A DNA stretch of 37,320 nt from a virus (IMGVR_UViG_2534681604_000010:1-37320), one strand, 5' to 3'; shown: positions 2,345-36,992, counted from the first letter of the stretch. The notes: generated by a model not told the origin, from the letters alone. A program made the numbers and translations.

Positions 2345-2456
2345 AACTGAAGTTGCCCTGAAAAGAAAATTTTTTGCGTAATGCGCAGAACTTTTCCTCA
2401 AGGCGTCAGTCTTAATTAGTGCCACTGCTTTTCTTTGATGTCCCCAATTTGTGGAG

Positions 2457-2499
2457 CCCATCAACCCCGCCGTTTTGGTTCAAGGTTGATGGGTTTTTT
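2457..2499 (+). terminator. Rho-independent terminator (plus-strand sense)
   Basis: Inverted repeat CCCATCAACC / GGTTGATGGG (2457..2466 and 2484..2493) followed by TTTTTT at 2494..2499. Confidence 0.5.
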
Positions 2500-2579
2500 G
2501 TTGCCTGAAATTTAAGCTGTTTAAAATCATGATGTTAGAAACACTGTTTTTTAACGATGGCGACAAAATGGCGGCAGCG

Positions 2580-2798
2580 TCAAAGAGAGAGCGCCACCTG
2601 TCCTGATTTCATTGGATGCGGCTGAACCGGATTTGACTCTTTTGGCGTTGCAATCGAACGAACAAAAGTTTCATGGGTAACAAAAGTATGGCTGCAGTTA
2701 ATGTTCTGGCACTGGTTGTAACGCTCTTTGGTCAATGAAGATACCTGAAAACTGCTGCGAGTATGGGCGGCACTTCCACACAGTGGGCAAATCATCAT
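2580..2798 (-). CDS. ogr: Ogr/Delta-family zinc-finger late transcription activator (P2 Ogr / 186 B)
   Basis: 72 aa from the internal Met: MMICPLCGSAAHTRSS...KERYNQCQNINCSHTF, carrying the CxxC...CxxxxC motif typical of Ogr; located just past gene D as in P2. Confidence 0.85.
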   Translation of the reverse strand: MMICPLCGSAAHTRSSFQVSSLTKERYNQCQNINCSHTFVTHETFVRSIATPKESNPVQPHPMKSGQVALSL

Positions 2799-2888
2799 TT
2801 TTCGAGTTCTCCCCATTTTTGCTAAATTCACAATAATGATACCGCATTATTCCATTTTGCAAACTTAAAAGTTCTCCATTGCGAAGAA

Positions 2889-9868: not shown

Positions 9869-10441
9869 TCAGGGGGATTCATTGATCTTATTTGCCGGAA
9901 ATTTTCTATAAATGGTAGAAACGCCTACATCAAAAATCAGTGCAATACGCTGTATTGATTCTCCGGCCTCGAGTAAACGCCCAATCTGTGCCCACTGTTC
10001 GGTGGTCAACTTAGGACGGCGTCCACCTACTCTGCCTTTGGCACGAGCTGCAGCCAGCCCTGCCCTGGTACGTTCAACTATCAGTTCGCGTTCCATTTCA
10101 GCCAGGGCACCCATGACATGAAAAAAGAAACGGCCCATTGGGGTACTGGTATCAATACTGTCAGTCAGGCTTCTGAAATTCACACCACGCTGGCGCAACT
10201 CTTCTATCAGCGTAACAAGATGCCGCATACTGCGCCCCAACCTGTCCAGCTTCCAGACAACCAGCGTGTCTCCTGCCGATAGTGTCCTGAGCAGTTTTTT
10301 CAACCCTAGTCTGTCGGACTTAGTGCCACTGATTTTATCCTCAAAAATCCGCTCACATCCCGCGCAGTTCAGTGCATTACGTTGCAAATCGGTGTTCTGG
10401 TCATTTGTTGACACGCGTACATAGCCAGTAAGCATGATCAT
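9869..10441 (-). CDS. Serine recombinase, DNA invertase of the Hin/Gin/Pin/Cin family
   Basis: N-terminus GYVRVSTNDQNTDLQRNAL with catalytic Ser motif, central VVWKLDRLGRS, C-terminal HTH; very close to e14 Pin / Mu Gin as recalled. The true start may be the second Met at 10435. Confidence 0.9.
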   Translation of the reverse strand: MIMLTGYVRVSTNDQNTDLQRNALNCAGCERIFEDKISGTKSDRLGLKKLLRTLSAGDTLVVWKLDRLGRSMRHLVTLIEELRQRGVNFRSLTDSIDTSTPMGRFFFHVMGALAEMERELIVERTRAGLAAARAKGRVGGRRPKLTTEQWAQIGRLLEAGESIQRIALIFDVGVSTIYRKFPANKINESP

Positions 10442-10491
10442 CTCCTAGAATAAAAATCGGGGATGATGCCAGTTAGTCGTAATCGCTGCAT

Positions 10492-10517
10492 TTTCTTAAA
10501 TGTTGTTTGGGAGAGGA
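10492..10517 (+). other. Degenerate hix-like crossover site (relic) about 50 bp upstream of the invertase gene
   Basis: TTTTCTTAAATGTTGTTTGGGAGAGG resembles the site at 12409..12434 (outer half-site, TT core, inner GGTTTGGGAGAA) but has a 1-bp deletion in the inner half-site. Confidence 0.35.
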
Positions 10518-10713
10518 GGCGAAACTCGACGCTGCACACAGTGTATTTTTTTATAGATCTTGGGCTATATTCCCATTAATAGGCTGTAATAAGTTAAGAG
10601 TGCAATGGGAGCGTTGGAAGGGAGATATAACAAGCACTACGTATAATTGTGATTTCACGTTTCCTATGTCATTTCATGAACTTGTTTCGGCGTATATTCA
10701 AGCGCAGGTGTAA
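10507..10713 (+). pseudogene. Orphan promoterless tail-fibre C-terminal cassette (probable remnant)
   Basis: ORF opens with TTG GGA GAG (L-G-E) inside the relic crossover site, in the same register as the alternative fibre tip at 12426; only 68 aa and no Tfa gene follows. Confidence 0.3.
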
Positions 10714-11016
10714 TGGCATCTAATTATGATTATGTATTATCTTATAGAATTTTAAGAAAAGCTGTTTCAATCATCTAACTAACGAAACCCGTTGTTAATG
10801 CTCAGTTTTTTCCTTGTCGATATGCTGCTTTGTAGCTGACGTATGTTTACTTGGCTTGTAATATGTTTCTAATTAAACCCTGTAGAGATCTTGATCATTA
10901 CTCAGGAAAGAATAATAAGCGGTTAGTTAAAATTCCCGCTAAGGCTGCACTTTAAAATGACAACTTTAGCGGAGGATAAATTGTACTTACATGTGTAAAT
11001 TTTAGGCATTAATTGT

Positions 11017-11439
11017 TTAAACTTTAGTCTCTGGTGAAGAGTCTTTTTTGAAGCTATCATCCTCCTTCTTCCCAAACATGTAACCTAGAGATAACGTAAT
11101 AATTGGGGTGAAAACAGCCCAAGAATCTTTAACTATATTTAAAGCTGACTGTCCCCCATTACTGAAGACATCAATCACTAATAATGCTGCAACAATACAG
11201 GAATAAATAGTCAGTGAATACGTTATTACATGCCAAACAACACTGTTTTTAGCATCATCACCTTTACCTATTTTATCGGGAATGCTTTCCTCGCTTTTAT
11301 TTCTCACTCTTACTGGAATATCACCATCCTGATAATCACCTTTGGTTGATTTTTTGCTTCTTGACGAACTACCTGAGATAGAAAAAGAGCCACCCGCCTG
11401 CTCATACTGTTCATACTGTTCATACTGTTCATCAGACAT
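11017..11439 (-). CDS. Hypothetical membrane protein: acidic EQY-repeat N-terminus, two predicted TM helices
   Basis: 140-aa ORF in AT-rich DNA; MSDEQYEQYEQYEQ then hydrophobic stretches ITYSLTIYSCIVAALLVIDVF and AVFTPIITLSLGYMFG; no similarity to P2 core genes that I recognise. Confidence 0.5.
   Translation of the reverse strand: MSDEQYEQYEQYEQAGGSFSISGSSSRSKKSTKGDYQDGDIPVRVRNKSEESIPDKIGKGDDAKNSVVWHVITYSLTIYSCIVAALLVIDVFSNGGQSALNIVKDSWAVFTPIITLSLGYMFGKKEDDSFKKDSSPETKV
11401..11431. repeat. In-frame 9-bp tandem repeat (TCATACTGT, about 3.3 copies) encoding the EQY repeats
   Basis: Read directly from the sequence; unit is a multiple of 3 so copy-number change keeps the frame. Confidence 0.8.
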
Positions 11440-11442
11440 AAG

Positions 11443-11880
11443 TCATTCCCCATCCGCATCCAGAACTTCTTCTTTTGTAGCTATATTTACCGTCAACAGA
11501 ATAGCATCATTATTTTCAGATAATGATTGGGTGGCAAAGAATAAATAATAGTTAAAAGTTTTCTTTTCACCGTTATTTGGTTCTAGGGTTTGTTTAAAAA
11601 ATCTTGTCCGAGTACCATCGTTAACACCTGCATCAACATGGAAAAAATTGATAAGATTAATATTTAACCCATCTTTAATCGTAGTTTTTACTCGAGGGAC
11701 AACCTCACCTTTTTCGTCTTCTTTTTTATCAACATCAAACTTAAGTCTTAATTTAAAATCGCCATAAAATTCAACTTCAGGGTTAGCAGCAAGAACCACC
11801 AATGTTTGAGAAAATACGACATCCATCCCCGATATTTTAGTTTTAATTTGCTTTTTCATTTGCACGCTCTTTTTTTGCAT
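11443..11880 (-). CDS. Hypothetical soluble protein (Lys/Asp/Glu-rich), middle gene of the AT-rich cassette
   Basis: 145-aa ORF ending 3 nt before the next gene; no family recognised. Start may be an internal Met. Confidence 0.5.
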   Translation of the reverse strand: MQKKSVQMKKQIKTKISGMDVVFSQTLVVLAANPEVEFYGDFKLRLKFDVDKKEDEKGEVVPRVKTTIKDGLNINLINFFHVDAGVNDGTRTRFFKQTLEPNNGEKKTFNYYLFFATQSLSENNDAILLTVNIATKEEVLDADGE

Positions 11881-12136
11881 TCAGATTACTATGATCTGGG
11901 TTATCATTTAACTTATTCAACGAAGGGCTATTCATACAGATATAATAAGTAATAAATATAATTATTATTACAATAAAGCCAGACTTACACATGATTCTAT
12001 ACATAAACTTCCCTATATCTTTAAATACTGATGTGTCGATAAGGGAAGGGACGCGCCATAGGAATCGACCAAAGGCAAAAAGGAATAATGTAACCATTAC
12101 TCCACTTGCTATATATATATAAATTTTGATATCCAT
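11843..12136 (-). CDS. Hypothetical small membrane protein (two predicted TM helices), first gene of the AT-rich cassette
   Basis: 97-aa ORF with hydrophobic segments IYIYIASGVMVTLFLFAFGRFLW and GFIVIIIIFITYYICM; overlaps the next gene by 38 nt. Confidence 0.4.
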   Translation of the reverse strand: MDIKIYIYIASGVMVTLFLFAFGRFLWRVPSLIDTSVFKDIGKFMYRIMCKSGFIVIIIIFITYYICMNSPSLNKLNDNPDHSNLNAKKERANEKAN

Positions 12137-12408
12137 AAAAACCTTAAATTAGTTTTTCTATCCATCGCTTAATAAAAAAGGTTGAAATGATAAACTCTTC
12201 ATCTATTGACGCACTATTTAATATCATATTTTATAGAATATGTCGAGTATAGTTTTAACTTGGATTCGATATAACCACAGAACCATCGCCAACACCTAAA
12301 GATGTCGTCCATCCTTTGACGACTAAAACTTAACACTCAATATGAATGGTTGTTTTATATACAGCCGCACCGTTCGTAGCGCATTGGAAACGTAAGGTAA
12401 ACGCATTA

Positions 12409-12434
12409 CTCTCTTTAAGGTTGGTTTGGGAGAA
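12409..12434. other. 26-bp hix/gix-like crossover site, invertase-proximal end of the invertible tail-fibre segment
   Basis: CTCTCTTTAAGG-TT-GGTTTGGGAGAA; the inner half-site plus core is a perfect 14-bp inverted repeat of 14295..14308. Confidence 0.6.
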
Positions 12435-12773
12435 GCGGCTAAAAGGAATGTAGGGACAGGGGCGAATCAGATACCTGATATGGGTAGCTTCACGCTTTCT
12501 GTTTCAGGTACTGGATATCAAAAATTACCATCAGGTTTTATTCTTCAGTGGGGCTCAATCGGCGCACCAGGCATTGCACAGGATGTAGTAACCCATTTCC
12601 CGATTGCATTTCCAAACAGATGTCTGCGTGTTTTGGTCTCACAAGACTACACACCAGATAGCGGGGCTGTTGGTTATATTGCCTGTGCAGGTTTTAGTCC
12701 CGACCCGGTTAAATTTATATCCAGAGCCAGTACTCCTGGCCTCGGCGCTTCATTTTTAGCGTTAGGCTGTTAA
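12426..12773 (+). CDS. Alternative tail-fibre C-terminal segment (silent in this orientation)
   Basis: The frame is open from 12396 and has no ATG of its own; it begins inside the crossover site with codons G-L-G-E, identical to the codons at the crossover site within H, so inversion would fuse it in frame to the H constant region. Confidence 0.65.
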
Positions 12774-12794
12774 TTTAGCTATATGGAGTGAAAA

Positions 12795-13235
12795 ATGAAT
12801 TACATATATTCCGCGACTACAAACTCTTTCTATCCGCTGGAGATGAAAGAGGATTACACTCAAGCTGACTCATGGCCAGATGATGCTGTTGAAGTTGATG
12901 AGCAGGTGTATATTGAGTTTTCCGGATTACCGCCGAAAGGAAAAATCCGTATCGCTGGAGAAAATGGTTTTCCTGCATGGTCTGAAATTCCACCACCAAC
13001 ACATGAGGAACAGATTGCTGCAGCCGAACTGGAAAAGCAGCAATTGATTAATCAGGCCAACGATTATATGAACAGTAAACAATGGCCTGGTAAAGCGGCT
13101 ATTGGTCGTCTGAAAGGTGACGAACTGGCGCAATATAATTTGTGGCTGGATTACCTGGACGCACTGGAACTGGTCGATACTTCCGGTGCGCCAGATATTG
13201 AATGGCCTACGCCTCCGGCAGTTCAGGCCAGATGA
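12795..13235 (+). CDS. Tail fibre assembly protein, alternative copy (Tfa', U'-like)
   Basis: 146 aa; C-terminus ...LWLDYLDALELVDTSGAPDIEWPTPP parallels the C-terminus of the active Tfa; convergent with it, 29-bp overlap. Confidence 0.8.
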   Translation: MNYIYSATTNSFYPLEMKEDYTQADSWPDDAVEVDEQVYIEFSGLPPKGKIRIAGENGFPAWSEIPPPTHEEQIAAAELEKQQLINQANDYMNSKQWPGKAAIGRLKGDELAQYNLWLDYLDALELVDTSGAPDIEWPTPPAVQAR

Positions 13236-13809
13236 CATCCGGCGCGGTGCTGGTATCTGTTGCCGTCACCGCGTCAATGTAATCCAGCACAGCGTTAAGT
13301 CGGGTTGTTTCTGCCTGCGTCAGTTTACGTCCGGCCTGCAATTTCAGTTGAATCAGACTAATGGAAGCCATTGCAGTATCAATCAGTGACTGACGCTGTG
13401 CTTCTGCCGCGCCTACTGCGGCGCTATGCTGTGCCACAGTATCTGTTACCCATTTCTCACCATCCCATTCATCGTATGGCGTTAACGGGGCGATAGTGGT
13501 TGTATTTTCAGGATAATCACCCGGAGCTGTGATTTCTTTCGATTCTCCTGTTTCGGTGCTATAGATGATTTCACCGCGATGGTCTGGCACATATTCCCAT
13601 GAGTTTAAATCTGCCGAACGGCAGATTGCATAACCAGCCTTATGTGTGCCAGGGGAATCTAAACAGGAACATGCCGGAATGCCGACACCAACGGCAAGAT
13701 ATTCATTTGAAGTGGAAATATATTCCCGTGTTTCACCATCATAGTTATAAACGGTAACATCCCCTGCCTTTGTTGCAATGAGCTCACTATTTAATATTGC
13801 TTTATGCAT
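13207..13809 (-). CDS. G: Tail fibre assembly protein (gpG-like Tfa), currently expressed orientation
   Basis: 200 aa immediately downstream of H; conserved Tfa C-terminal motif ...LDYIDAVTATDTSTAPDVIWPELPEA. Confidence 0.85.
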   Translation of the reverse strand: MHKAILNSELIATKAGDVTVYNYDGETREYISTSNEYLAVGVGIPACSCLDSPGTHKAGYAICRSADLNSWEYVPDHRGEIIYSTETGESKEITAPGDYPENTTTIAPLTPYDEWDGEKWVTDTVAQHSAAVGAAEAQRQSLIDTAMASISLIQLKLQAGRKLTQAETTRLNAVLDYIDAVTATDTSTAPDVIWPELPEA

Positions 13810-23798: not shown

Positions 23799-25565
23799 AT
23801 GAACACCACACTGACACCCGCAGATCTCGATCCCCGTCGGCAGGCCATGCTGCTGTACTTTCAGGGATACCGCGTAGCCCGCATTGCTGAAATGCTGGGC
23901 GAGAAAGTTGCAACCGTTCACAGCTGGAAAAAACGCGACAAGTGGAGTGACTATGGGCCGCTGGATCAGATGCAGCTCACCACCGCCGCACGCTACTGCC
24001 AGCTCATCATGAAGGAGCACAAAGAAGGGAAAGATTTCAAAGAGATTGACCTGCTGGCGCGCCAGTCGGAGCGCCACGCGCGGATCGGCAAGTTTAACAA
24101 TGGCGGCAACGAAGCCGACTTAAACCCTAACGTCGCCAACCGCAATAAAGGCCCACGCCGTCAGCCGGAAAAGAATGTTTTCACCGATGAGCAGATTGAG
24201 AAGCTGGAAGAAATCTTCCATTCCTCCATGTTCAACTACCAGCGCCACTGGTGGGAAGCCGGAAAAACCAACCGCATCCGCAACCTGCTGAAGTCTCGCC
24301 AGATCGGCGCGACCTTCTATTTTGCCCGTGAAGCCCTGATTGACGCCCTGCTTACCGGACGTAACCAGATTTTCCTTTCTGCCAGTAAGGCTCAGGCCCA
24401 CGTCTTTAAACAATACATCATCGACTTCGCCAAAGAAGTCGAGGTGGAGCTAAAAGGCGATCCGATGGTGCTTCCTAACGGAGCCACGCTTTACTTCCTC
24501 GGCACCAATGCCCGCACGGCCCAGAGTTATCACGGCAACCTGTATCTGGATGAATATTTCTGGATACCGAAATTCCAGGAGCTGCGCAAAGTGGCTTCCG
24601 GGATGGCTATTCACAAGAAATGGCGACAAACCTATTTTTCCACGCCATCCAGCCTGACCCACAGTGCTTATCCGTTCTGGTCCGGTGCGCTGTTCAACCG
24701 TGGACGCAACAAAGCTGACAAGGTGGACATCGACCTGTCCCACAGCAATCTGGCCCCCGGCCTACTGTGCGCAGACGGGCAATACCGCCAGATAGTCACC
24801 GTGGAAGATGCGGTGCGCGGCGGCTGTAACCTGTTCGACCTCGACCAGCTGCGCATGGAGTACAGCCCGGACGAATACCAGAACCTGCTGATGTGCGAGT
24901 TCGTGGACGATCTCGCGTCCGTGTTCCCGCTCAGCGAACTGCAGGCGTGCATGGTGGACAGCTGGGAAGTCTGGACCGACTTTCATGCACTGGCCCTGCG
25001 CCCGTTTGGCTGGCGCGAAGTGTGGATCGGTTATGACCCGGCAAAAGGTACGCAGAACGGCGACAGTGCCGGATGCGTGGTGGTGGCTCCGCCAGCCGTG
25101 CCGGGTGGTAAGTTCCGCATTCTTGAGCGTCACCAGTGGCGCGGGATGGACTTCCGCGCCCAGGCTGACGCCATCAAAAAACTGACCGAACAGTATAACG
25201 TGACCTATATCGGTATCGACTCGACCGGCGTCGGTCACGGGGTTTACGAGAACGTGAAAGCGTTCTTTCCTGCCGTCCGAGAGTTTGTCTACAACCCCAA
25301 CGTTAAAAATGCCCTGGTACTCAAGGCCTACGACATTATCAGTCACCGCCGTCTGGAGTTTGACGCCGGACACACCGACATAGCGCAGTCCTTTATGGCA
25401 ATCCGTCGCGCCACCACCGCCAGTGGCAACCGCCCGACCTATGAAGCCAGCCGCAGCGAAGAAGCCAGCCACGCCGATCTGGCCTGGGCAACGATGCACG
25501 CACTGTTTAACGAACCGCTGCAGGGCGAATCCGCCAATACCAGCAATATTGTGGAGATTTTTTGA
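23799..25565 (+). CDS. P: Terminase large (ATPase) subunit gpP
   Basis: 588 aa; P2 P-like; divergent from O. Confidence 0.9.
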   Translation: MNTTLTPADLDPRRQAMLLYFQGYRVARIAEMLGEKVATVHSWKKRDKWSDYGPLDQMQLTTAARYCQLIMKEHKEGKDFKEIDLLARQSERHARIGKFNNGGNEADLNPNVANRNKGPRRQPEKNVFTDEQIEKLEEIFHSSMFNYQRHWWEAGKTNRIRNLLKSRQIGATFYFAREALIDALLTGRNQIFLSASKAQAHVFKQYIIDFAKEVEVELKGDPMVLPNGATLYFLGTNARTAQSYHGNLYLDEYFWIPKFQELRKVASGMAIHKKWRQTYFSTPSSLTHSAYPFWSGALFNRGRNKADKVDIDLSHSNLAPGLLCADGQYRQIVTVEDAVRGGCNLFDLDQLRMEYSPDEYQNLLMCEFVDDLASVFPLSELQACMVDSWEVWTDFHALALRPFGWREVWIGYDPAKGTQNGDSAGCVVVAPPAVPGGKFRILERHQWRGMDFRAQADAIKKLTEQYNVTYIGIDSTGVGHGVYENVKAFFPAVREFVYNPNVKNALVLKAYDIISHRRLEFDAGHTDIAQSFMAIRRATTASGNRPTYEASRSEEASHADLAWATMHALFNEPLQGESANTSNIVEIF

Positions 25566-26593
25566 TGGGAAAGAGTAAGAAAAACCGCGCTGTGTCGACG
25601 AACCAGATTCAGCATAAAAGCCAGACTTCAGCCGAAGCATTCAGCTTTGGCGATCCCGTTCCTGTTCTGGACCGCCGCGAACTGCTGGACTATGTGGAAT
25701 GCGTACAGACAGATCGCTGGTATGAGCCGCCAGTGAGTTTTGACGGACTGGCGCGAACCTTCCGCGCTGCCGTGCATCACAGTTCACCAATTGCGGTGAA
25801 ATGCAACATTCTGACCAGTACCTACATCCCTCACCCGCTTCTCAGCCAGCAGGCTTTTTCACGTTTTGTGCAGGACTATCTGGTATTTGGTAACGCTTAC
25901 CTGGAGAAACGCACGAACCGGTTCGGTGAAGTTATCGCCCTTGAGCCTGCTCTGGCAAAATACACCCGACGTGGGTTAGACCTGGATACCTACTGGTTTG
26001 TGCAATACGGTATGACAACCCAGCCGTATCAGTTCACGAAAGGCAGCATTTTTCATCTGATGGAACCAGATATCAACCAGGAGATCTACGGCCTGCCCGG
26101 TTATCTTTCTGCCATTCCGTCAGCCCTGCTCAACGAGTCCGCCACGCTGTTCCGCCGTAAGTATTACATCAACGGCAGCCATGCAGGCTTCATCATGTAC
26201 ATGACCGACGCCGCGCAGAACCAGGAAGATGTAAACAATCTCCGTAACGCGATGAAAAGCGCCAAAGGTCCAGGCAACTTCCGCAACCTGTTTATGTACT
26301 CGCCTAACGGCAAAAAAGACGGGCTTCAGATTATTCCTCTGTCAGAAGTCGCGGCAAAGGATGAATTTTTGAATATCAAGAACGTGAGCCGGGATGACAT
26401 GATGGCTGCGCACCGCGTGCCGCCGCAAATGATGGGGATTATGCCTAATAATGTTGGAGGGTTTGGGGATGTGGAGAAGGCGAGTAATGTTTTTGTAAGA
26501 AATGAACTAACATCATTGCAAAAAAGATTTGAAGAATTGAATATATGGTTAGGTAAAACTGTTATCAGTTTTGACGCCTACAAACTTGAATAA
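25562..26593 (+). CDS. Q: Portal protein gpQ
   Basis: 343 aa; ATGA overlap with P; P2 Q-like. Confidence 0.9.
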   Translation: MMGKSKKNRAVSTNQIQHKSQTSAEAFSFGDPVPVLDRRELLDYVECVQTDRWYEPPVSFDGLARTFRAAVHHSSPIAVKCNILTSTYIPHPLLSQQAFSRFVQDYLVFGNAYLEKRTNRFGEVIALEPALAKYTRRGLDLDTYWFVQYGMTTQPYQFTKGSIFHLMEPDINQEIYGLPGYLSAIPSALLNESATLFRRKYYINGSHAGFIMYMTDAAQNQEDVNNLRNAMKSAKGPGNFRNLFMYSPNGKKDGLQIIPLSEVAAKDEFLNIKNVSRDDMMAAHRVPPQMMGIMPNNVGGFGDVEKASNVFVRNELTSLQKRFEELNIWLGKTVISFDAYKLE

Positions 26594-26600
26594 TTATTTG

Positions 26601-26620
26601 AAAGGTGCCCTGGCACCTTT
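26601..26620. terminator. Hairpin between convergent Q and the accessory membrane-protein gene (likely bidirectional terminator)
   Basis: AAAGGTGC-CCTG-GCACCTTT perfect 8-bp stem, flanked by T-rich sequence. Confidence 0.45.
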
Positions 26621-27305
26621 ATCTATTGCACCTTGGATTAAACTTCCCTTCCACATAATTTACAACCTCAACAAATTCGCTACCATTTACCTCTCTAAAG
26701 CTAAAAACCCCTTTGCCATCTACGCATTTCTTTAAAACAAAATTTCCGTTATATTCTCCAACTACTATTTTTCCATCCAAGGTTTTCCATAGAACAGATG
26801 CAAACTGATTATGATAATTAATCCCTCCAAGAAAACTAGTAACTGACATAAAGAAAACCGTTAATATGGCATATACGAAATCTATATTAATCAAATCACC
26901 ACTTCGTTCAAATGTTTTGCACAACGACATTACCACCAACCATGAACAAATACCAAAAAGACCACCATTAAGATAGTTAACTAAGTCTTTTTCCCCCCTC
27001 TTAAAACTTAAAAAAACTGAAAATATTGTTATGGCAATAAAAATCCAAAGAACATACTTAATTTTATTAAGTTTAATCGCACCATCATTCAAAATAAAAT
27101 TAAAAACACCTATAATAATACTACCAAAATAGAAAAAAAGCTTTAAAGAAATATTCGCAACACTCGTTAAATCTAATGATATAAGTATTGCTGGATAACC
27201 AAAATAAACGGCCTCACCAAGTTTAAAAAAATATGCCAATATAAATAGCAACACCGTCAGTATTGTTACCAATGGAAAATCAAAGTTATTATTAAATTTA
27301 ACCAT
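26619..27305 (-). CDS. Hypothetical polytopic membrane protein (four to five predicted TM helices plus about 70-aa C-terminal soluble domain)
   Basis: 228-aa ORF in strongly AT-rich DNA between Q and cos; no family recognised. Confidence 0.55.
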   Translation of the reverse strand: MVKFNNNFDFPLVTILTVLLFILAYFFKLGEAVYFGYPAILISLDLTSVANISLKLFFYFGSIIIGVFNFILNDGAIKLNKIKYVLWIFIAITIFSVFLSFKRGEKDLVNYLNGGLFGICSWLVVMSLCKTFERSGDLINIDFVYAILTVFFMSVTSFLGGINYHNQFASVLWKTLDGKIVVGEYNGNFVLKKCVDGKGVFSFREVNGSEFVEVVNYVEGKFNPRCNR

Positions 27306-27360
27306 ACATTACAAGATTCCATTTTATTTTAATAGCGCCCACTTACGCAGACGCCCCATA

Positions 27361-27651
27361 TTATTCTTTAATAAGAGTACCCCAATCTACATCAGATTCT
27401 GCAACTACAATATTAATTGAACATTGTATGCACTCCTCACTTATTCTCGTATAAGTGAAATATCTAGTTTTAACAATACCACTAAACGAAGACCGACTAT
27501 TGTCATTACATATAGAGACAAAATCACCTACATTGGGAAGTAGAAGAAAAGGATTTTCTTCTGACGAACAGCCTACTATATCTCCGTCATCAATTGGTCT
27601 TGTGGACCCTTTAGGCAAGTATTGGTAATCATAGCTATATATCGTCTTCAT
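27361..27651 (-). CDS. Hypothetical small protein, upstream partner of the membrane protein
   Basis: 96-aa ORF, same strand, 55 bp upstream of 26619..27305; AT-rich. Confidence 0.45.
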   Translation of the reverse strand: MKTIYSYDYQYLPKGSTRPIDDGDIVGCSSEENPFLLLPNVGDFVSICNDNSRSSFSGIVKTRYFTYTRISEECIQCSINIVVAESDVDWGTLIKE

Positions 27652-27737: not shown

Positions 27738-27756
27738 CTGTTATGTCATCCCGCGC
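27738..27756. other. Candidate cos cohesive-end site
   Basis: Minus-strand GGCGTGGCGGGGATACGAG; the first 13 nt match the P2/186 cos end as I recall it (GGCG[A/T]GGCGGGGA); surrounded by GC-rich short repeats. Confidence 0.45.
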
Positions 27757-27936
27757 GCTCGTATCCCCGCCACGCCTGCCCGCTTTATGTAGCGGTTTTC
27801 ATGCGCCTGCATGACATAAGCAAAATCCCGCCACTCCTGGCGGGCCTCAGCTAAAACGATCCTCAAACGATCATGCGGATTCATGCGGCATAGACATGCA
27901 CAATCTCCAAAGCGGGCATCGAGACTTTTTGGAAAC

Positions 27937-28548
27937 CTACGTAACCACAGTTAATGTGTGCATCCTGTCTCGAATTGCATCACACGTCTCATCAAAAAGC
28001 TTGGTGATGGTTGTATGGTTCAACTCCGCCTCTTTCCAATAATTTTGCCCGTCAAATTCTGGATCGCTATGCTTAAACGATATTGACTCTGAAAGGCATT
28101 CCTTCCGGAAACGGTCCAAGATTATATAAACCTCTGGTGAGATGAACGGTTTGTTAGATTCAACACTTGTAACAAAAGTGTTAAATGCATCAGAAAAAAC
28201 TTTCAACCTTCTAAATTTTCTCTCTTCAAATGGTTCGTTGGGGTCAACATGATCCAGCGCAGGCCTCAGCTTAAGCACGCTTTCTCTGGTTTCAAACATC
28301 GAATTCCAAATGAGACTATATGCTGATAACTCCTTATCAAAATACGCTTTCGTTACATAAACAGAATTGTCTAACTTAGCCTTTATTCTTTCATTAGTTG
28401 CACTCAGTTGTGATTGAAATTCAGCAATATCTTTGTTTAGCCGCGACTTATATCTTTCTAAATAAACTTTCCCGATCCAAACAAATATGCCAGATGCAAC
28501 AAAAGACACCCCACCCAACGAAGCCAGAACTTTAAAGACTAAATCCAT
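27937..28548 (-). CDS. Hypothetical membrane-anchored protein (N-terminal TM helix, soluble C-terminal domain)
   Basis: 203-aa ORF; AT-rich; located between gene A and cos, the tin/old accessory position of P2. Confidence 0.55.
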   Translation of the reverse strand: MDLVFKVLASLGGVSFVASGIFVWIGKVYLERYKSRLNKDIAEFQSQLSATNERIKAKLDNSVYVTKAYFDKELSAYSLIWNSMFETRESVLKLRPALDHVDPNEPFEERKFRRLKVFSDAFNTFVTSVESNKPFISPEVYIILDRFRKECLSESISFKHSDPEFDGQNYWKEAELNHTTITKLFDETCDAIRDRMHTLTVVT

Positions 28549-28596
28549 TGCGCCCCCACCTGCAAAAATAGTATTCCATTATAAGCTAATACATTT

Positions 28597-28857
28597 TTAA
28601 TCAAACAGGGGATAATTCGCGTCAACCTCATCACTTCTCTGCTCTACCCTAGTGACTTCCATCAAAAACCCCAGGCCGTCATATAGCGAAACGGGGAATT
28701 CCAGCTCAAGCCAGAAGCAGTCTTCATAGATGCGGCCCAACCAAAAACCTCCGCCACACTCCTTTGGGCGTTGAAAGAAGACCCAGTCGCCAAGGGTTAA
28801 ACGTTCCAGCACCTAGCCCCGATAAATAATCTGGTGATTACTGTCTTTTTTACCCAT
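28597..28857 (-). pseudogene. Small ORF interrupted by an in-frame TAG (ATG 28857 ... TAG 28813..28815 ... resumes 28812)
   Basis: RBS GAGG upstream of ATG 28857; 14 codons, amber stop, then 71 further codons in the same frame. Confidence 0.35.
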
Positions 28858-28930
28858 GGCTAACGCCTCGCTACTCTCGTTGTTCAACCTTGCTGACGTC
28901 AGATTCAAGTTCTTACATCAGGAACGTTCC

Positions 28931-29164
28931 TTAGTGCAGCCAGCTGTCGTCTTCCCAAACCTGTTGCATAATTTCCATCACCCGCTTTTTGTCTTCATCA
29001 AGCTTTAAGCCACTCAGCTCAACGCCGTTTGCCGACCCTTTACGGATGCGGATAGCGGTCTTGGGATAGATGGGTTGCAGGTTGCGGTAAAGCTCGGACT
29101 CCAGAGCGTCCAGGGTAGACTGGCTAATCTTCTGCTCTTTATCGATCATTATTTCAATGCGCAT
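28931..29164 (-). CDS. DinI-family protein
   Basis: MRIEIMIDKEQKISQSTLDALESELYRNLQ...KKRVMEIMQQVWEDDSWLH resembles E. coli DinI (about 80 aa) as recalled; internal Met chosen as the start. Confidence 0.75.
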   Translation of the reverse strand: MRIEIMIDKEQKISQSTLDALESELYRNLQPIYPKTAIRIRKGSANGVELSGLKLDEDKKRVMEIMQQVWEDDSWLH

Positions 29165-29174
29165 AAAAGTCACC

Positions 29175-29363
29175 TCAGCTGATGACATCCATTGAGCGGT
29201 TGTATTCGTGGCTTCTGATTTTTGCCATGAGTTCATCAGTCAATTCAGAAACCCACTGCAGGGCCAGCCCCTTCTCTTCATCACTACACTCACTAGCCGC
29301 TACAAGCTTAAGAAAAAAATCAATGCGCTGGAGCTTCAAAGACTCCAAAAAATAGTCCTGCAT
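29175..29363 (-). CDS. Small acidic protein, first gene of the LexA-box operon
   Basis: 62 aa from the internal Met with strong RBS AGGAGG; sits between the LexA box and the DinI-like gene. Confidence 0.45.
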   Translation of the reverse strand: MQDYFLESLKLQRIDFFLKLVAASECSDEEKGLALQWVSELTDELMAKIRSHEYNRSMDVIS

Positions 29364-29404
29364 CTTTCCTCCTATGACACCGCAAACAATACTGTATAGA
29401 TAAC

Positions 29405-29424
29405 CACTGTTTATATTTACAGTA
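29405..29424. promoter_or_regulatory. LexA operator (SOS box) CACTGTTTATATTTACAGTA with adjacent half-site-like TACTGTATAG
   Basis: Canonical CTGT-N8-ACAG palindrome read from the sequence, upstream of the small-ORF/DinI-like gene pair. Confidence 0.65.
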
Positions 29425-29516
29425 TATGATAATCTTACTGATGTAAAACGTTTTTTTACGTTCATCAGCCTGATATGCCTGGTATTATTAAGAGCACGAA
29501 TTGTTAACCCGCGTAA

Positions 29517-31931
29517 TTAATACAGGTTCCGCCACTTATCATCTTCCTGCAAACGCTGGTTCCGATAGAAGACACGCAGGCCTGCTCCTGACGGAATACT
29601 GCCGCCGCGAAGGAGTAAATCGACCTCTTTCTCGCTGCCATCAAATCCTCTGGACTTCAGTTCATAGACGAGCTGCTGTCGTTGATGGTCTGTAATTCGC
29701 TGTTTGTAGTCTCTACGCCGTTTCGGTTTCACCAGGCGTAACCTTGCAGCCAGTTCCCGGCGCTCTTTTTTGTTCATACTGTGCAGGTAATCGTGCAACT
29801 CCTTGTCATCCATGTGGGTAATGTCCGTTCTGGTATCCCCATCAGCTGATTTGTCTTTCCCTTGTTGGTTCAAATTTTCAGCAAGGGGACAGTTATTGCC
29901 ACGAGTCCAAGGGGCGCAAGCGCCCTGGTCGGCTGCCGCCTCCTGAACGTCAACGGCCTTACGAACCATTTTCCACTTCACTGCATGAGTGCAGATCTTG
30001 CCCTCTGCAATGGGTGACCAGATGCCATAAATACGAATACCGTGATCACCATAGGCGGTCGGCTCTTCGTTGATTTCATAAGCGGTTCTGATCAAGTGAT
30101 ATTTGCGGGGAACCAACACGCCGCCCTGCTTCATAATGTAGGTGGCAAAACAGCCAGCATCAGCAGCAGCCAGAATGGCATCAAGACGCGGATCATCCAG
30201 TACCGGCGCACCTGCTTTTTTGTCACCCTGCTGCCTTGCCGCCTGACCAGCCAGCAATCGCAGTTCACGGTAAGCCTGACGCCCCGGAATGCCAAAGAAG
30301 CGGAATTGCTGAACACGATGCAGAGACGCCCAGGCATTAACGTATTCAGCGTTATCACGCAGGGATTTACCCGTTTCCTTGCTGATCTCGCCAGCCAGAC
30401 CACGCCCGTCAATGTTCTTACTGATGTATTTCGCGATGTAGCTTGTCGGCGTTCCTTTGCGCGGGTTAATCAGCTCAGACTTAAAGCGTGGCCCCGTGTT
30501 ATTGCCCAGTTCCTCGCGGTCTTCACGGATGGCAAACTTACGCAGTAATGCAGTGATGGCGCGGCGGTCTTTTTTACGCATGAAGCACATGAGATGCCAG
30601 TGCACAGTACCGTCATGATGCGGCTCAGCCACCCGCACGCCATACCACCGCAATCCGGCTTTGTGCATCGCCTTACGAAATGCAGCAAACATGCCGACCA
30701 GATAATCACTGCTTTGTCTTACCGTCGCATTTGTCCAGGTCGGGTTTGGTCTGCCGTTATTGAGCGTGGAATGGAAACGTGACGGACAGGTGATGGTGTA
30801 GAAAACGGCGCAGTCACCGCGCATTTCCGCGATAAGCTCCAGACCTTTAACGCAGGCCATCATCTCATTGCGGCGATGTGCCGGGTTGCTGCTGCTGGCG
30901 TTTACCACATCTTCCATATCCAGCGTGTCTCCGTCTTCGTTCACCAGTTCATGAGAACGGAAAAACTCCAGCGACTTGCGGCGCTGCTCACGTTTATGCG
31001 TCACTGCTTCATAGCTGACATAGGGAGATGCTTTTTTGCTGACCAGACAGACAGCACGCAACTGCTCTTCCCGCCATTCGCAACGCATCTTCCACAATTT
31101 TCGATACCACCAGTCGGCGCAAAGCATACGTGCCAGCGAACCCGGTATGAGTTCATAGGGCACAGGTTTGCGGCGGTTTCTTTTCCGACGAAGTTTCTCA
31201 AACGCAGGCGGGATAACATCCAGACGCAGGGTTTCCGCAGCCACCTTTTCCCATGTCTTGCGGATTTCTTCTGGCTTAACGTCATCGGTGGCGTACAAAT
31301 CACCACAAGCGGCCTCAAGACACATGCTCATATGCGCTGCTACCAGGGTGGACAGGCGTTTCACCTGATCCTGGCTCATTTCAGGCAGGATCAGCAGCCC
31401 CTCCAGCCCTTGATGGCTTGCCATAAAACGGAAAGAAACAGATAGCTGACTGTCACGTACACAATCCAGTCGCTCCAGACATGGCTTAATCGTCTCACGC
31501 AAATAGCGGGAATAAGCCTTTGGCCTGCCCAGGCTGCTGAAGTATTCGATACGTTGCATCAGCGGCTTGCTGATATGAGAAGGCTGGGCGCTGACATCTG
31601 CCAGAATGACCATGTCCGGGTTAAAACGCTGCTGCTCATGCGCCAGCTTTGCCCGGCTAATGAGCTTATCCTGCTCCATTTCGCGCTGGACAGGATCACG
31701 GGATTCATTAAAGAAATAACGCTCCCAGACCTGCTCACTCAGTGCCTCGCGGCGCAGTTGTTCCTGCTCGTTATCGGCAGCGTACAGAGTGATCAGGTTT
31801 GAAAGTGCAGACTCCGGCGCAACTTCCGCCGGATCCAGATAAGGGTTAATGGCCTTTTTCGGGCCGTTCCATGAAAATGCTGCGGCAGCCTCGTTAAAGC
31901 CGCTAGAGTTGCTCATATCGTCATGACTCAT
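29517..31931 (-). CDS. A: Replication initiation protein gpA (rolling-circle HUH endonuclease family)
   Basis: 804 aa; contains a GTVHWH motif; P2/186 A position. Confidence 0.85.
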
Positions 31932-34850: not shown

Positions 34851-34995
34851 AAGGCAACATTCCTTCTAGATATGGCTTGTGGCGAGCCGTTGTTTGTCGT
34901 GATTAGTAGTGAAGGCTCCAAAAGAACACTTCTGGTTCAACTTTAAGATCGCTTTTGGAATCTGTCAACGAATTTTGGATTTCTTTGGAGGACTT

Positions 34996-35565
34996 GTGGA
35001 TTTCAATAGCGGCGGTAAGAAAGCCATAGAACGTTTAGTTGAAGCATATGGGTTCGGTACCCGTCAGGCTCTCTGTGATCATTTAGGTGTTTCTAAGAGC
35101 ACCATGGCAACGCGCTATATGCGTGATATTTTTCCAGCAGATTGGGTAATCCAGTGCGCCCTTGAAACGGGCACCTCGCTTAATTGGCTAACAACAGGGC
35201 ATGGTTCAAAGCAAGCATCAGCAAATACAAATACTATAGAAGTAGAAAAATATTTATTGTCTGATGGAGCATTGCAGAAAGACGGTTTTTATATTTTTGA
35301 TAAGGGATTTCTACCCTCTACGTTTAAAAAACCTTTTGTCATCACAGATAACAATTCTGAATTTATTTGTGATAAAGAATTTGATGATATACGTGATGGT
35401 AAATGGGTAATAAGTATTGATGGCGAAATAACGATCCGTGACATTACTCGTTTACCCGGTGGAAGAATCTTCGTCGAGGGTGGAAACAGAGCCTTCGAAT
35501 GCAAGATAGAAGACATTGAAATAATTGGTAAAATTATAAGTTTAACAGTCAAGTATGTTAAATAG
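34996..35565 (+). CDS. cI: CI-like immunity repressor (phage 186 type)
   Basis: ...ERLVEAYGFGTRQALCDHLGVSKSTMATRY...CALETGTSLNWLTTGHG... resembles 186 CI as recalled; GTG start at 34996 after GGAGG gives about 190 aa; the ORF track starts at 34909. Confidence 0.75.
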   Translation: MDFNSGGKKAIERLVEAYGFGTRQALCDHLGVSKSTMATRYMRDIFPADWVIQCALETGTSLNWLTTGHGSKQASANTNTIEVEKYLLSDGALQKDGFYIFDKGFLPSTFKKPFVITDNNSEFICDKEFDDIRDGKWVISIDGEITIRDITRLPGGRIFVEGGNRAFECKIEDIEIIGKIISLTVKYVK

Positions 35566-35580
35566 TACCGGGAGGAAACT

Positions 35581-35772
35581 ATGCTTGGTAAGGTATTTTT
35601 TGTGGTTTTGTCATGTTCTTTGTTATTAAACCCACTAACTACCTATGCTAGAAATTATCCCTGCTCAGGGAAAAAGGGAGGTGTTTCTCACTGTACCTCA
35701 GATGGCAAATTCGTTTGCAATGATGGAACTATTAGTAAATCCAAAAAAATCTGTACTAAAAACTCACGATAA
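35581..35772 (+). CDS. Small secreted cysteine-rich protein (signal peptide plus about 40-aa mature part with 4 Cys)
   Basis: RBS GGGAGGA before the ATG; hydrophobic N-terminus [23 protein letters not shown]; sits between cI and int. Confidence 0.5.
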
Positions 35773-35960
35773 CTTTTGCTTTTATATCTGCGTCTAAAAT
35801 AAAAATGAGCCGCATGTTAACCGCAAAAGTTACATGCTCACATAGCAAAAAGAATAGCCAACTTCATTATGGCTTCAGTGAGATGTATGGTCGTAGGATT
35901 TCATACATTGACACTGGTTATACATACAGTAAAAATGCTCTCTACTGGAGGGCATTTTTT

Positions 35961-36992
35961 ATGGCAGTACGAAAACTCACCACAGGGAAATGGCTTTGCG
36001 AATGTTACCCCGCCGGAAGAAGTGGGCGTCGTGTGCGTAAACAATTCGCCACCAAAGGCGAAGCTCTGGCTTTTGAGCGTCACACGATGGAAGAAACCGA
36101 ATCAAAGCCCTGGCTGGGCGAATCAGTGGATCGTCGAACCCTGAAAGACGTGGTTGAGCTATGGTTCAAATTACATGGTAAATCTCTGACTGCTGGGCAG
36201 CATGTCTATGACAAATTGCTGCTGATGGTTGACGCTCTAGGCAATCCTCTTGCAACCAATCTCACCTCTAAAATGTTTGCCCACTATCGAGATAAACGCC
36301 TGACAGGTGAGATCTACTTCAGCGAGAAATGGAAGAAAGGAGCCAGCCCGGTCACCATTAACCTGGAGCAAAGCTATCTAAGTAGTGTTTTTAGCGAACT
36401 ATCCCGCCTGGGCGAATGGTCGTATCCAAACCCACTGGAGAACATGCGAAAATTCACCATCGCAGAAAAAGAGATGGCATGGCTTACCCATGAGCAGATT
36501 GTTGAATTGCTGGCTGATTGCAAACGTCAGGACCCAATTCTGGCACTGGTAGTTAAGATATGCTTAAGCACAGGCGCACGTTGGCGTGAAGCCGTAAATC
36601 TTACCCGCTCACAGGTGACCAAATACCGAATTACCTTTGTAAGAACGAAGGGGAAGAAAAACAGAAGCATCCCTATCAGTAAAGAGCTTTACGAAGAGAT
36701 CATGGCGCTTGATGGGTTCAATTTCTTTACAGACTGCTATTTTCAATTTTTATCCGTGATGGAAAAAACGTCTATCGTGCTCCCTCGCGGTCAACTGACA
36801 CACGTTCTGCGCCATACGTTTGCGGCGCACTTCATGATGTCGGGTGGAAATATCCTGGCCTTACAAAAAATTCTCGGGCATCACGATATAAAAATGACTA
36901 TGCGTTACGCACATCTGGCACCGGATCACCTGGAAACTGCATTACGGTTTAATCCGCTGGCAACACTACCAACATCAATAGCAAGTTTTTGA
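35961..36992 (+). CDS. int: Tyrosine integrase (phage integrase family)
   Basis: C-terminal catalytic region ...HVLRHTFAAHFMMSGGNILALQKILGHHDIKMTMRYAHL (R...HxxR...Y); internal Met used as the start (343 aa). Confidence 0.9.
   Translation: MAVRKLTTGKWLCECYPAGRSGRRVRKQFATKGEALAFERHTMEETESKPWLGESVDRRTLKDVVELWFKLHGKSLTAGQHVYDKLLLMVDALGNPLATNLTSKMFAHYRDKRLTGEIYFSEKWKKGASPVTINLEQSYLSSVFSELSRLGEWSYPNPLENMRKFTIAEKEMAWLTHEQIVELLADCKRQDPILALVVKICLSTGARWREAVNLTRSQVTKYRITFVRTKGKKNRSIPISKELYEEIMALDGFNFFTDCYFQFLSVMEKTSIVLPRGQLTHVLRHTFAAHFMMSGGNILALQKILGHHDIKMTMRYAHLAPDHLETALRFNPLATLPTSIASF

What the first reader, a model, noticed from the sequence alone, without database searches (positions are those of the whole stretch)
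27937..28548. Unassigned membrane-anchored 203-aa protein at the tin/old position
This gene lies between replication gene A and cos, on the A strand, where P2 carries the exclusion genes tin and old (a recognised defence hotspot). The protein has one N-terminal TM helix and a soluble domain with no family I can recognise, in AT-rich DNA.
Basis: partly seen in the sequence, partly recalled or inferred. Interest (0 to 1): 0.65.

Follow-up and report, generated by a model that had tools for sequence, protein, structure and literature searches.

The report
Lysogen-expressed membrane protein beside P2 cos
A P2-like prophage carries, where phage P2 keeps its exclusion genes, a real stand-alone gene for a membrane-anchored protein of unknown function; it belongs to a large unnamed family found on mobile elements in many phyla and is a good, still untested, candidate anti-phage gene.

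Summary
Window 27937-28548 (-) is a 203-aa ORF with 38.7% GC in a ~55% GC P2-like prophage. It lies between gpA and cos (27758-27776), the slot where P2 carries tin and old.

It is a real gene: dN/dS is 0.11-0.15. Published RNA-seq shows its 96.6%-identical LF82 homologue is expressed in the lysogen.

It matches no Pfam, NCBIfam, PADLOC or PDB entry and is not related to Tin. It was already catalogued without a function: Rousset 2022 "system 39, 1 TM", PHROG 26391, and the LF82 "moron" LF82_789.

New here:
- It belongs to a large family (916 clusters at 50% identity) that is stand-alone and found in many phyla, on prophages, satellite-like elements and islands, often next to RM, OLD, Septu, TIR or toxin-antitoxin genes.
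- The AlphaFold2 model is confident (pLDDT 94.8): one N-terminal TM helix, a coiled-coil stalk and a four-helix bundle. The bundle is predicted to be cytoplasmic.
- The TM/juxtamembrane motif is the most conserved part and also occurs fused to other C-terminal domains.

Best reading: a single-gene, membrane-tethered anti-phage determinant. The defence role (about 0.5) and the mechanism are inferred, not shown. Interest is moderate.

The parts
27937..28548 (-). CDS of the 203-aa protein (stop codon 27937-27939)
   Evidence: ORF list. phrog_26391 matched over 203/203 positions, E 2.6e-141. dN/dS 0.11-0.15. 100% identical gene in E. coli H1, WP_000366631.1.
28471..28530 (-). Residues ~7-26: the single transmembrane helix, with a face of small residues (G12, G13, S19/G20, G26) and the conserved W24-x-G26-K27 end
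   Evidence: Hydropathy scan: 160 of 175 family members have exactly one N-terminal hydrophobic segment. The 21-30 block is the most conserved of the protein, 2.83 bits per column. Helix 14-61 in the model.
28366..28470 (-). Residues 27-61: positively charged juxtamembrane stretch and heptad-like coiled-coil stalk
   Evidence: AF2 model: continuous helix 14-61, pLDDT 94-98. K+R in the C-terminal flank exceed the N-terminal flank in 161 of 164 members. Stalk length varies between homologues.
27940..28365 (-). Residues 62-203: four-helix bundle (H67-92, H107-131, H138-160, H168-198) closed by a two-strand sheet (63-65 / 199-201). Invariant E73, P134, E154, R195; near-invariant W81, R95, P96, F135, R193.
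28578..28604 (-). Possible own promoter: TTGATT (28604-28599), 15-nt spacer, perfect TATAAT (28583-28578), about 30 nt upstream of the ATG, in the 48-nt gap after the 71-aa ORF
   Evidence: Read from the sequence. The consensus scan did not list it because the spacer is 15 nt. Independent expression of the LF82 homologue in lysogens supports a promoter here.
27817..27844 (-). Terminator-like hairpin CCCGCCAGGAGTGGCGGG followed by ATTTTGCTTA, 93 nt after the stop codon and before cos
   Evidence: Terminator scan.
27758..27776 (-). cos cohesive-end sequence (GGCGTGGCGGGGATACGAG on the minus strand). It separates this gene (right arm) from the cos-Q cargo.
   Evidence: 14 of 19 identical to P2 cosR and in the same hairpin context. 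Conservation with E. coli P2-like prophages starts at 27752.

Best explanation
The gene is a stand-alone prophage 'moron': horizontally acquired, low in GC, apparently with its own promoter and terminator, and expressed in the lysogen.

It encodes a bitopic inner-membrane protein. The short N-terminus faces the periplasm. A single TM helix continues into a coiled-coil stalk, and the C-terminal four-helix bundle is in the cytoplasm.

I consider it most likely a single-gene anti-phage determinant that works at the cytoplasmic face of the membrane. In this reading the four-helix bundle, with its buried E73/E154/R195 polar cluster, binds or senses a phage product. The highly conserved TM/juxtamembrane/coiled-coil module oligomerises and acts as the effector, compromising the membrane and aborting the infection.

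Shown:
- It is a real gene under purifying selection.
- Its near-identical homologue is expressed in the lysogen.
- The architecture, and the family-wide evidence for the predicted topology.
- Family size, stand-alone status and association with mobile elements and defence islands.
- The domains are modular.

Inferred: that it acts against phages; that the bundle is the sensor and the TM module the effector; that the outcome is abortive infection.

The confidence of 0.45 is for the anti-phage reading as a whole. The specific sensor/effector/abortive mechanism alone I put at about 0.25.
For: **Position.** The gene sits in the gpA-gpQ hotspot, in the same A-to-cos slot as P2 tin/old (hotspot defined in PMC9122126).

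**Expression.** LF82_789 = CARTA_47 is the 96.6%-identical homologue.
- Its FPKM is ~46, against 9 for the upstream gene and 7.7 for the portal gene.

**Selection and retention.**
- dN/dS is 0.11-0.15.
- In 23 P2-like elements the gene keeps the same place while the cargo on the other side of cos takes at least 11 different forms, including retron St85 and DUF4145.

**Family.** The profile search found 916 clusters at E<=1e-3 and 386 at E<=1e-10, mostly full-length proteins of 190-225 aa.

**Context of relatives.**
- Sequences carrying the family's N-terminal motif come from many phyla.
- No recurrent neighbour was found in 67 loci.
- Full-length members sit next to RM + Abi_alpha, an OLD-family nuclease + TIR, Mrr, HNH-WYL, HigBA, and integrases or resolvases.
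- Other members lie beside the CI region of Pseudomonas phage Riah and beside the integrase of a satellite-like element.
- Neighbours of motif-bearing loci include Septu PtuA, PD-Lambda-1, dGTPase, several PDC candidates and AbiJ.

**Structure.**
- AF2 pLDDT is 94.8.
- The fold resembles sensor-type four-helix bundles.
- The positive-inside rule holds in 161 of 164 members.
- The TM end is the most conserved block.
- The same TM module is fused to at least 4 other C-terminal domains, and the bundle also occurs on other anchors.
Against: - No phage-challenge data exist for any member, and the gene is not among the systems tested by Rousset et al..
- Only about 21% of cargo protein groups in this hotspot hit DefenseFinder, and non-defence cargo such as CDT toxin occurs there.
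- The four-helix bundle is a generic fold with no catalytic signature, so sensor and effector roles are assigned by analogy only.
- The neighbourhood census had no matched control, used crude gene calls and was seeded on the N-terminal motif. Only 11 of its 67 loci carry the full-length type.
- Within its own P2 lineage the gene is stably linked to the replication arm rather than swapped. That could also fit a phage-own function.
- Topology is predicted, not measured.
Confidence: 0.45

Rival explanations
1. Non-lethal superinfection exclusion. The membrane-tethered protein blocks genome entry, or sequesters an incoming phage protein at the inner membrane, without killing the cell. This would work like P22 SieA, T4 Imm or HK97 gp15.
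For: Membrane anchoring, expression in the lysogen, a position next to the immunity region in phage Riah, and a binding-type helical domain with no enzymatic motif.
Against: The bulk of the protein is predicted to be cytoplasmic, whereas proteins that block entry usually need periplasmic or membrane-embedded contact. No Pfam or PHROG link to Imm or Sie families was found. The family's breadth across phyla argues against dependence on one phage's entry route.
Confidence: 0.2
2. A lysogenic-conversion factor that benefits the host in ways unrelated to phages, for example tolerance of envelope or membrane stress or intracellular survival.
For: In LF82 the homologue's transcript value (supplement column suffix 'log2p5fpkm') rises from ~5.5 in LB to ~10.5 after 6 h in macrophages. 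The hotspot also carries non-defence cargo.
Against: The upstream early-operon genes rise in parallel (CARTA_46 from 3.2 to 7.6), so the increase may be read-through during prophage derepression. The family occurs in soil, marine and anaerobic taxa and next to defence genes. It has no similarity to known stress proteins.
Confidence: 0.15
3. A phage-own accessory function, such as tethering replication or packaging to the membrane, tuning lysis timing, or acting as an addiction toxin.
For: The gene is co-directional with and directly downstream of the early replication operon, 160 bp from cos. It is stably retained in its lineage while the neighbouring cargo is swapped.
Against: It is present in only 52 of 5426 complete E. 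coli genomes, while 1265 carry the flanking P2-like sequence. P2 and Klebsiella relatives lack it. Homologues occur outside phages, in islands and in what looks like a Vibrio integron cassette array. No partner or antitoxin is conserved.
Confidence: 0.1
4. A spurious or decaying ORF with no function.
For: Eleven E. coli genomes carry ~90%-identical copies. The one examined is a pseudogene with frameshifts, a 17-nt deletion and a stop codon, inside a degraded P2 remnant.
Against: Purifying selection, 41 copies at 95% identity or more in E. coli, transcription, a confident fold and hundreds of full-length homologues.
Confidence: 0.01

Closest known systems
P2 Tin and Old (exclusion genes of phage P2)
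   Same: Same slot between gpA and the right cos end. They are non-essential, expressed in the lysogen and AT-rich relative to the phage.
   Different: No homology: hhalign against Tin gives probability 0.3%, and there is no ATPase or TOPRIM domain. Tin and Old are soluble proteins (my own knowledge). They are transcribed from near cos towards A on the opposite strand, whereas this gene is co-directional with A.
Rousset et al. 2022 P2-hotspot 'system 39' (1 TM, no Pfam; 103 occurrences) / PHROG 26391 / LF82_789 (CARTA_47)
   Same: It is the same protein, near-identical in sequence.
   Different: Those entries carry no function, family analysis or structure. The gene was not among the systems cloned and tested.
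Transmembrane effectors of abortive-infection systems (e.g. CBASS and retron TM effectors, RexB, and the TM partners in Rousset's Hydrolase-TM and RT-TM systems)
   Same: A membrane-embedded element encoded in a defence hotspot. The proposed outcome, membrane damage on infection, is the same (concept quoted in PMC9122126).
   Different: Here a single gene would have to provide both sensing and effect. It has one TM helix rather than two to four, and no sequence match to any PADLOC model.
Four-helix-bundle sensor domains of chemoreceptors and histidine kinases (Tar/Tsr, NarQ, TorS, 4k0d)
   Different: Identity is 3-9% and there is no Pfam 4HB_MCP hit. Talin, catenin and de novo bundles score about as well, so the similarity is generic. 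This protein has one TM rather than two, and the domain is predicted cytoplasmic rather than periplasmic. It has no output domain.

Membership tests
P2 Tin | Sequence homology to P2 Tin (NP_046797) | tested here: not met
   hhalign of the family profile A2 against Tin: probability 0.3%, 17 aligned columns.
OLD family (P2 Old) | ABC-type ATPase plus TOPRIM nuclease domains | tested here: not met
   No AAA_15, AAA_21 or TOPRIM hit in Pfam or PADLOC. The protein is 203 aa and all-helical.
Any defence family in PADLOC-DB v2.0.0 | Profile match to a component model | tested here: not met
   No hit at E<=1 for the window protein. Among 59 family members there were only scattered single hits from coiled-coil noise.
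Prophage moron (autonomous lysogen-expressed accessory gene) | Absent from close relatives, and composition unlike the phage | tested here: met
   Present in 52 of 5426 E. coli genomes, against 1265 with the flanking P2-like sequence. 38.7% GC against 55.5%.
Prophage moron (autonomous lysogen-expressed accessory gene) | Own promoter and terminator | tested here: inconclusive
   A perfect TATAAT with a weak -35 and a 15-nt spacer, seen by eye but not reported by the scan. A terminator-like hairpin was found.
Prophage moron (autonomous lysogen-expressed accessory gene) | Transcribed in the lysogen while neighbouring phage genes are silent | tested here: met
   Published RNA-seq of the 96.6%-identical LF82 homologue: FPKM ~46 against 9 (upstream gene) and 7.7 (portal), listed as a moron. 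Not measured for this window's own host.
P2 gpA-gpQ hotspot cargo (Rousset 2022) | Lies between gpA and gpQ next to cos, and is listed in their catalogue | tested here: met
   Coordinates. Table S5B 'system 39', 103 occurrences, '1 TM'. WP_000366631 appears in Table S5A.
4HB_MCP / sensor four-helix-bundle domains | Sequence-profile match | tested here: not met
   No Pfam 4HB family hit for the protein or for 59 relatives.
4HB_MCP / sensor four-helix-bundle domains | Periplasmic domain flanked by two TM helices | tested here: not met
   One hydrophobic segment only. The positive-inside rule places the domain in the cytoplasm in 161 of 164 members. This is a prediction, not an experiment.
HEPN RNases | Conserved Rx4-6H motif in a helical bundle | tested here: not met
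   The conserved C-terminal motif is I-R-x-R. H197 is not conserved in the family.
Known superinfection-exclusion proteins (T4 Imm, SieB and others with Pfam or PHROG models) | Profile match | tested here: not met
   No such family among the Pfam or PHROG hits. Families that lack a model could not be tested.

The most novel reading that the evidence does not exclude
The protein would be the founding example of a widespread, unrecognised class of single-gene, membrane-tethered immune sensors. In this class a conserved N-terminal TM/'WLGKVWAxRILE'/coiled-coil module acts as a universal membrane effector. Interchangeable cytoplasmic helical domains, of which this four-helix bundle is the commonest, supply the phage-sensing specificity. 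Such proteins would be present in many bacterial phyla and in phages of both Gram-negative and Gram-positive hosts.
Probability: 0.25. Interest if true: 0.75.

Novelty: new variant of a known kind. Interest (0 to 1): 0.5.

Why it matters
The gene occupies the classic tin/old slot of a P2-like phage and is demonstrably switched on in lysogens, yet it has no assigned family. If it defends against phages, it would add a very compact (203 aa, one gene) and phylogenetically broad family to the defence catalogue.

It would also give a simple model for how a membrane-tethered cytoplasmic sensor can act alone. The swappable C-terminal domains on a conserved membrane module would then be a ready-made system for studying how sensing specificity evolves.

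It also corrects a recurring RefSeq misannotation ('valyl-tRNA synthetase'). The experiment is cheap: one ~0.9-kb clone and a phage panel.

Tried and rejected
**Homology and motif checks that failed**
- P2 Tin: rejected.
- Haemophilus phage HP1 orf1 was suggested by a weak BFVD hit. It is not related: hhalign probability 0.2%, and by eye it has two hydrophobic stretches.
- HEPN-type Rx4-6H motif: absent.
- Weak hits to the valyl-tRNA-synthetase arm, apolipoprotein, F-ATPase subunit b' and a G1-ATPase subunit are all below threshold. I read them as coiled-coil or stalk noise.

**Structure and sequence database searches with no useful result**
- PDB sequence search with both profiles: nothing.
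- BFVD fold search: nothing at E<=0.001.
- The afdb50 fold library was unavailable.

**Locus searches**
- The search for related loci failed with alignments A2 and A3 because no stretch was conserved enough.
- With A1 on species-representative genomes it found nothing.
- It succeeded only when seeded on the WLGKVWA motif. That biases the sample towards the N-terminal module.

**Partner gene.** No conserved partner or antitoxin was found.

**Literature**
- No paper mentions WP_000366631.
- The held supplements of the DefensePredictor paper contain neither the accession numbers nor the invariant peptide.
- No supplements are held for the 2026 NAR P2/P4 paper.

Full report
**1. The observation**

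The window is a P2-like prophage read in the reverse of the standard P2 map.
- Terminase gpP is at 23799-25565 (+) and portal gpQ at 25562-26593 (+).
- Replication gene A is at 29517-31931 (-).
- CI and integrase are at 34909-36992.
- The closest deposited phage is Escherichia phage Cartapus, at 97.6% identity over window 27809-29600.

The reported ORF is exactly as described: 27937-28548 (-), ATG start, 203 aa. A purine-rich Shine-Dalgarno-like run lies 4-11 nt upstream.

Its GC content is 38.7%, against 55.5% for the structural genes (profile).

The cohesive-end sequence is at 27758-27776. It matches P2 cosR at 14 of 19 bases and follows the same type of hairpin. The gene therefore lies between A and the right cos end, the slot that holds tin and old in P2. 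Unlike tin and old, which are antiparallel to A, this gene is co-directional with A.

**2. It is a real, expressed gene**

Ten distinct alleles from 23 P2-like elements give dN/dS of 0.11-0.15 at dS ~0.8.

Upstream, in the 48-nt gap after a 71-aa ORF, there is a perfect TATAAT with a weak -35 (TTGATT) and a 15-nt spacer. The automated scan does not report it because of the spacer. A GC-rich hairpin with a T-tract follows the stop codon and precedes cos.

Independent evidence comes from E. coli LF82. Its prophage Cartapus carries a 96.6%-identical copy at 2759532-2760143, called LF82_789 or CARTA_47.
- Misson et al. [quoted passage not shown]
- Their S1 table gives FPKM ~46. The gene immediately upstream gives 9 and the portal gene 7.7.
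- The transcript value (supplement column suffix 'log2p5fpkm') rises from ~5.5 in LB to ~10.5 after 6 h in macrophages. The upstream early genes rise in parallel.

**3. What it is not**

- Pfam gives only sub-threshold coiled-coil hits. One of these, PF10458 at 16.7 bits against a cutoff of 25.9, probably explains the RefSeq label 'valyl-tRNA synthetase' on some E. coli copies.
- NCBIfam and PADLOC give nothing, for this protein or for 59 relatives.
- No PDB sequence matches.
- It is unrelated to Tin.
- The only match is phrog_26391, of unknown function.

**4. What was already known**

Rousset et al. 2022 (PMC9122126) defined the gpA-gpQ hotspot. Their Table S5B lists a near-identical sequence as system 39 with 103 occurrences, no Pfam domain and '1 TM'. 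WP_000366631 appears in their Table S5A. The sequence is absent from their table of tested systems.

I found no paper naming the accession. It is also absent from the held supplements of the DefensePredictor paper.

**5. Distribution and context in P2-like phages**

The gene occurs in 52 of 5426 complete E. coli genomes: 41 at 95% identity or more and 11 at ~90%. The one ~90% copy I examined is a frameshifted pseudogene in a degraded P2 remnant. By contrast, 1265 genomes match the flanking P2-like sequence. The gene is therefore accessory.

In 23 elements that carry it, the order is always A, DinI, small ORF, this gene, cos, variable cargo, Q. The cargo between cos and Q takes at least 11 forms:
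- retron St85 in E. coli H1;
- a DUF4145 protein in LF82;
- DUF4325 plus a hypothetical protein in Rousset's table;
- here, a 228-aa multi-TM protein plus a 96-aa protein.

The gene is thus an independent unit. In this lineage it is more stably linked to the replication arm than the neighbouring cargo is. Other P2-like phages fill the same A-to-cos slot differently: tin and old in P2, and hypothetical proteins of about 280 and 72 aa in a Klebsiella phage.

**6. The wider family**

A word-indexed search found only enterobacterial relatives at 66-99% identity. An exhaustive profile search found far more: 916 clusters (50% identity) at E<=1e-3, 386 at E<=1e-10 and 23 at E<=1e-30. Nearly all are 190-225 aa and align end to end.

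In a 59-sequence alignment at 24-47% identity to the query:
- invariant residues are E73, P134, E154 and R195;
- near-invariant residues are G26, F70, W81, L94, R95, P96, F135, I192 and R193.

Sequences carrying the family's N-terminal motif come from many phyla. These include Acidobacteriota, Nitrospirota, Bacillota, Planctomycetota, Bacteroidota, Desulfobacterota, Lentisphaerota, a CPR lineage and several classes of Pseudomonadota. Distant homologues also occur in Pseudomonas phage Riah, Clostridium phage Maintenon and a Lactiplantibacillus plasmid.

**7. Genomic neighbourhoods**

Ten full-length distant members were looked up with precomputed Pfam annotation. Their neighbours were:
- a methylase-nuclease fusion protein (N6_N4_Mtase + Mrr_cat/NA-iREase1) plus Abi_alpha;
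- an integrase/Prim-Pol element;
- an integrase/resolvase element;
- HigBA plus a resolvase;
- HigBA, HNH-WYL and an integrase;
- a prophage-like element;
- unannotated genes next to smpB in Enterobacter;
- a run of small same-strand genes in Vibrio that looks like an integron cassette array;
- a position immediately upstream of an OLD-family ATPase-TOPRIM gene, with an integrase and a TIR gene nearby;
- an Mrr-type nuclease.

In phage Riah the homologue lies between the early-left genes and the CI repressor. In the Lactiplantibacillus element it lies just after the integrase.

Among 67 loci from species-representative genomes, no neighbouring gene recurs; the largest neighbour cluster has 3 members. 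Their 150 nearest neighbours include Septu PtuA, PD-Lambda-1, a dGTPase, PDC-S11/S31/S32/S51, AbiJ, DUF4041, HicB, HNH nucleases and recombinases.

This census has three limits. It has no control set. It used crude ORF calling. It was seeded on the N-terminal motif, so only 11 of the 67 loci carry the full-length type.

**8. Structure and topology**

With the 59-sequence alignment, AlphaFold2 gives pLDDT 94.8 and pTM 0.75. The model has these elements:
- helix 2-10;
- a long helix 14-61, comprising the TM segment and a stalk;
- a four-helix bundle of H67-92, H107-131, H138-160 and H168-198;
- two short strands (63-65 and 199-201) that tie the start and end of the domain together.

Across the family, 160 of 175 proteins have exactly one hydrophobic segment, at the N-terminus. 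The 15 residues after it hold more K+R than the residues before it in 161 of 164 cases, with means of 3.2 and 0.4. By the positive-inside rule the bundle is cytoplasmic.

From helical periodicity, E73, R114, E154, N177 and R195 fall on the core-facing stripes of their helices. I infer a buried polar cluster from this; I had no coordinates to confirm it.

**9. Modularity**

The 10-residue block at the end of the TM helix (residues 21-30; 'SSWLGKVWAxRILExDR' in the main clade) is the most conserved part of the protein. Small residues recur at heptad spacing along the TM helix (G12/G13, S19/G20, G26). The hydrophobic pattern of the stalk continues this spacing, which suggests a continuous parallel coiled coil.

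The same N-terminal module is fused to at least four other C-terminal helical domains, in proteins of 273, 276, 331 and 444 aa. None of those domains has a Pfam match.

Conversely, the four-helix bundle also occurs on TM anchors that lack the motif, and with stalks of different lengths.

**10. Interpretation**

These results establish a lysogen-expressed, stand-alone, horizontally mobile gene for a bitopic membrane protein. It sits in a recognised defence hotspot and has relatives in defence islands and mobile elements.

They do not establish what it does. I put about 0.5 on an anti-phage role in total. My preferred mechanism has the cytoplasmic bundle as sensor and the conserved TM/coiled-coil module as an oligomerising membrane effector, giving abortive infection. 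I give that specific mechanism about 0.25.

The other readings are non-lethal exclusion, a host-fitness conversion function and a phage-own accessory role. Position alone is weak evidence: only about 21% of cargo groups at this hotspot match known defence models, and toxins such as CDT also occur there.

**11. Verdict**

The finding is correct as stated. The gene was already catalogued as an unknown. The family-level, structural and modular picture appears to be new. Interest is moderate, and a single cloning experiment would settle the main question.

Noticed in passing
window 26619-27651 (-): This is the hypervariable cos-to-portal slot. It holds a 228-aa multi-TM protein (26619-27305, phrog_35408) and a 96-aa protein (27361-27651, phrog_12676), at 31.7% GC. 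Neither has a Pfam, NCBIfam or PADLOC hit. Relatives carry retron St85, DUF4145 and other cargo at the same place. None of the best E. coli matches covers this segment. It looks like an uncharacterised two-gene candidate system.
   Followed up: partly
window 9869-13809: A resolvase-type DNA invertase (9869-10441) lies next to tail-fibre C-terminal and tail-fibre-assembly genes on opposite strands (12426-13809). This looks like an invertible host-range switch. Three low-GC ORFs with no family (11017-12136, minus strand) lie between them.
   Followed up: partly
E. coli RefSeq genomes, e.g. NZ_AP022215.1 3118858-3119469: In many complete E. coli genomes the 203-aa gene is annotated 'valyl-tRNA synthetase'. 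This is most likely an artefact of a sub-threshold coiled-coil match to PF10458.
   Followed up: yes
L091, L096, L100/L101, L109, L071/L074/L086, L085/L090/L093/L103 (family gene near position 6001 in most): The N-terminal TM + 'SSWLGKVWANRILE' + coiled-coil module is fused to several unrelated C-terminal helical domains (proteins of 273-444 aa). None has a Pfam match.
   Followed up: partly
L019 5001-5592 (E. coli 2015C-3121; similar copies in STEC1589 and STEC1590): A ~90%-identical copy of the gene is a pseudogene with two 1-nt deletions, a 17-nt deletion and a premature stop. It lies in a degraded P2 remnant flanked by IS3, an integrase fragment and a DprA gene.
   Followed up: yes
window 1-2800: The chromosomal flank (ybjL, ybjM) is only ~84% identical to every E. 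coli genome, while parts of the prophage are 100% identical to E. coli prophages. The host is probably another enterobacterial species, and the phage or its arms moved between species recently.
   Followed up: partly
window 27741-27884 (-): A 47-aa ORF (phrog_28685) runs across the cos site and the terminator-like hairpin. It is annotated as a gene in some records but is probably not a real gene.
   Followed up: no
window 28931-29465 (-): The DinI-like ORF (101 aa) matches the DinI domain only from residue 38, so its start is probably over-extended. It overlaps a 96-aa ORF whose conserved part (phrog_698) starts at residue 35.
   Followed up: no
L118 2005-4612: A 40%-identical family member lies directly upstream of, and co-directional with, an OLD-family ATPase-TOPRIM gene, with an integrase and a TIR-domain gene nearby. 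This pairing echoes the tin/old slot of P2.
   Followed up: no
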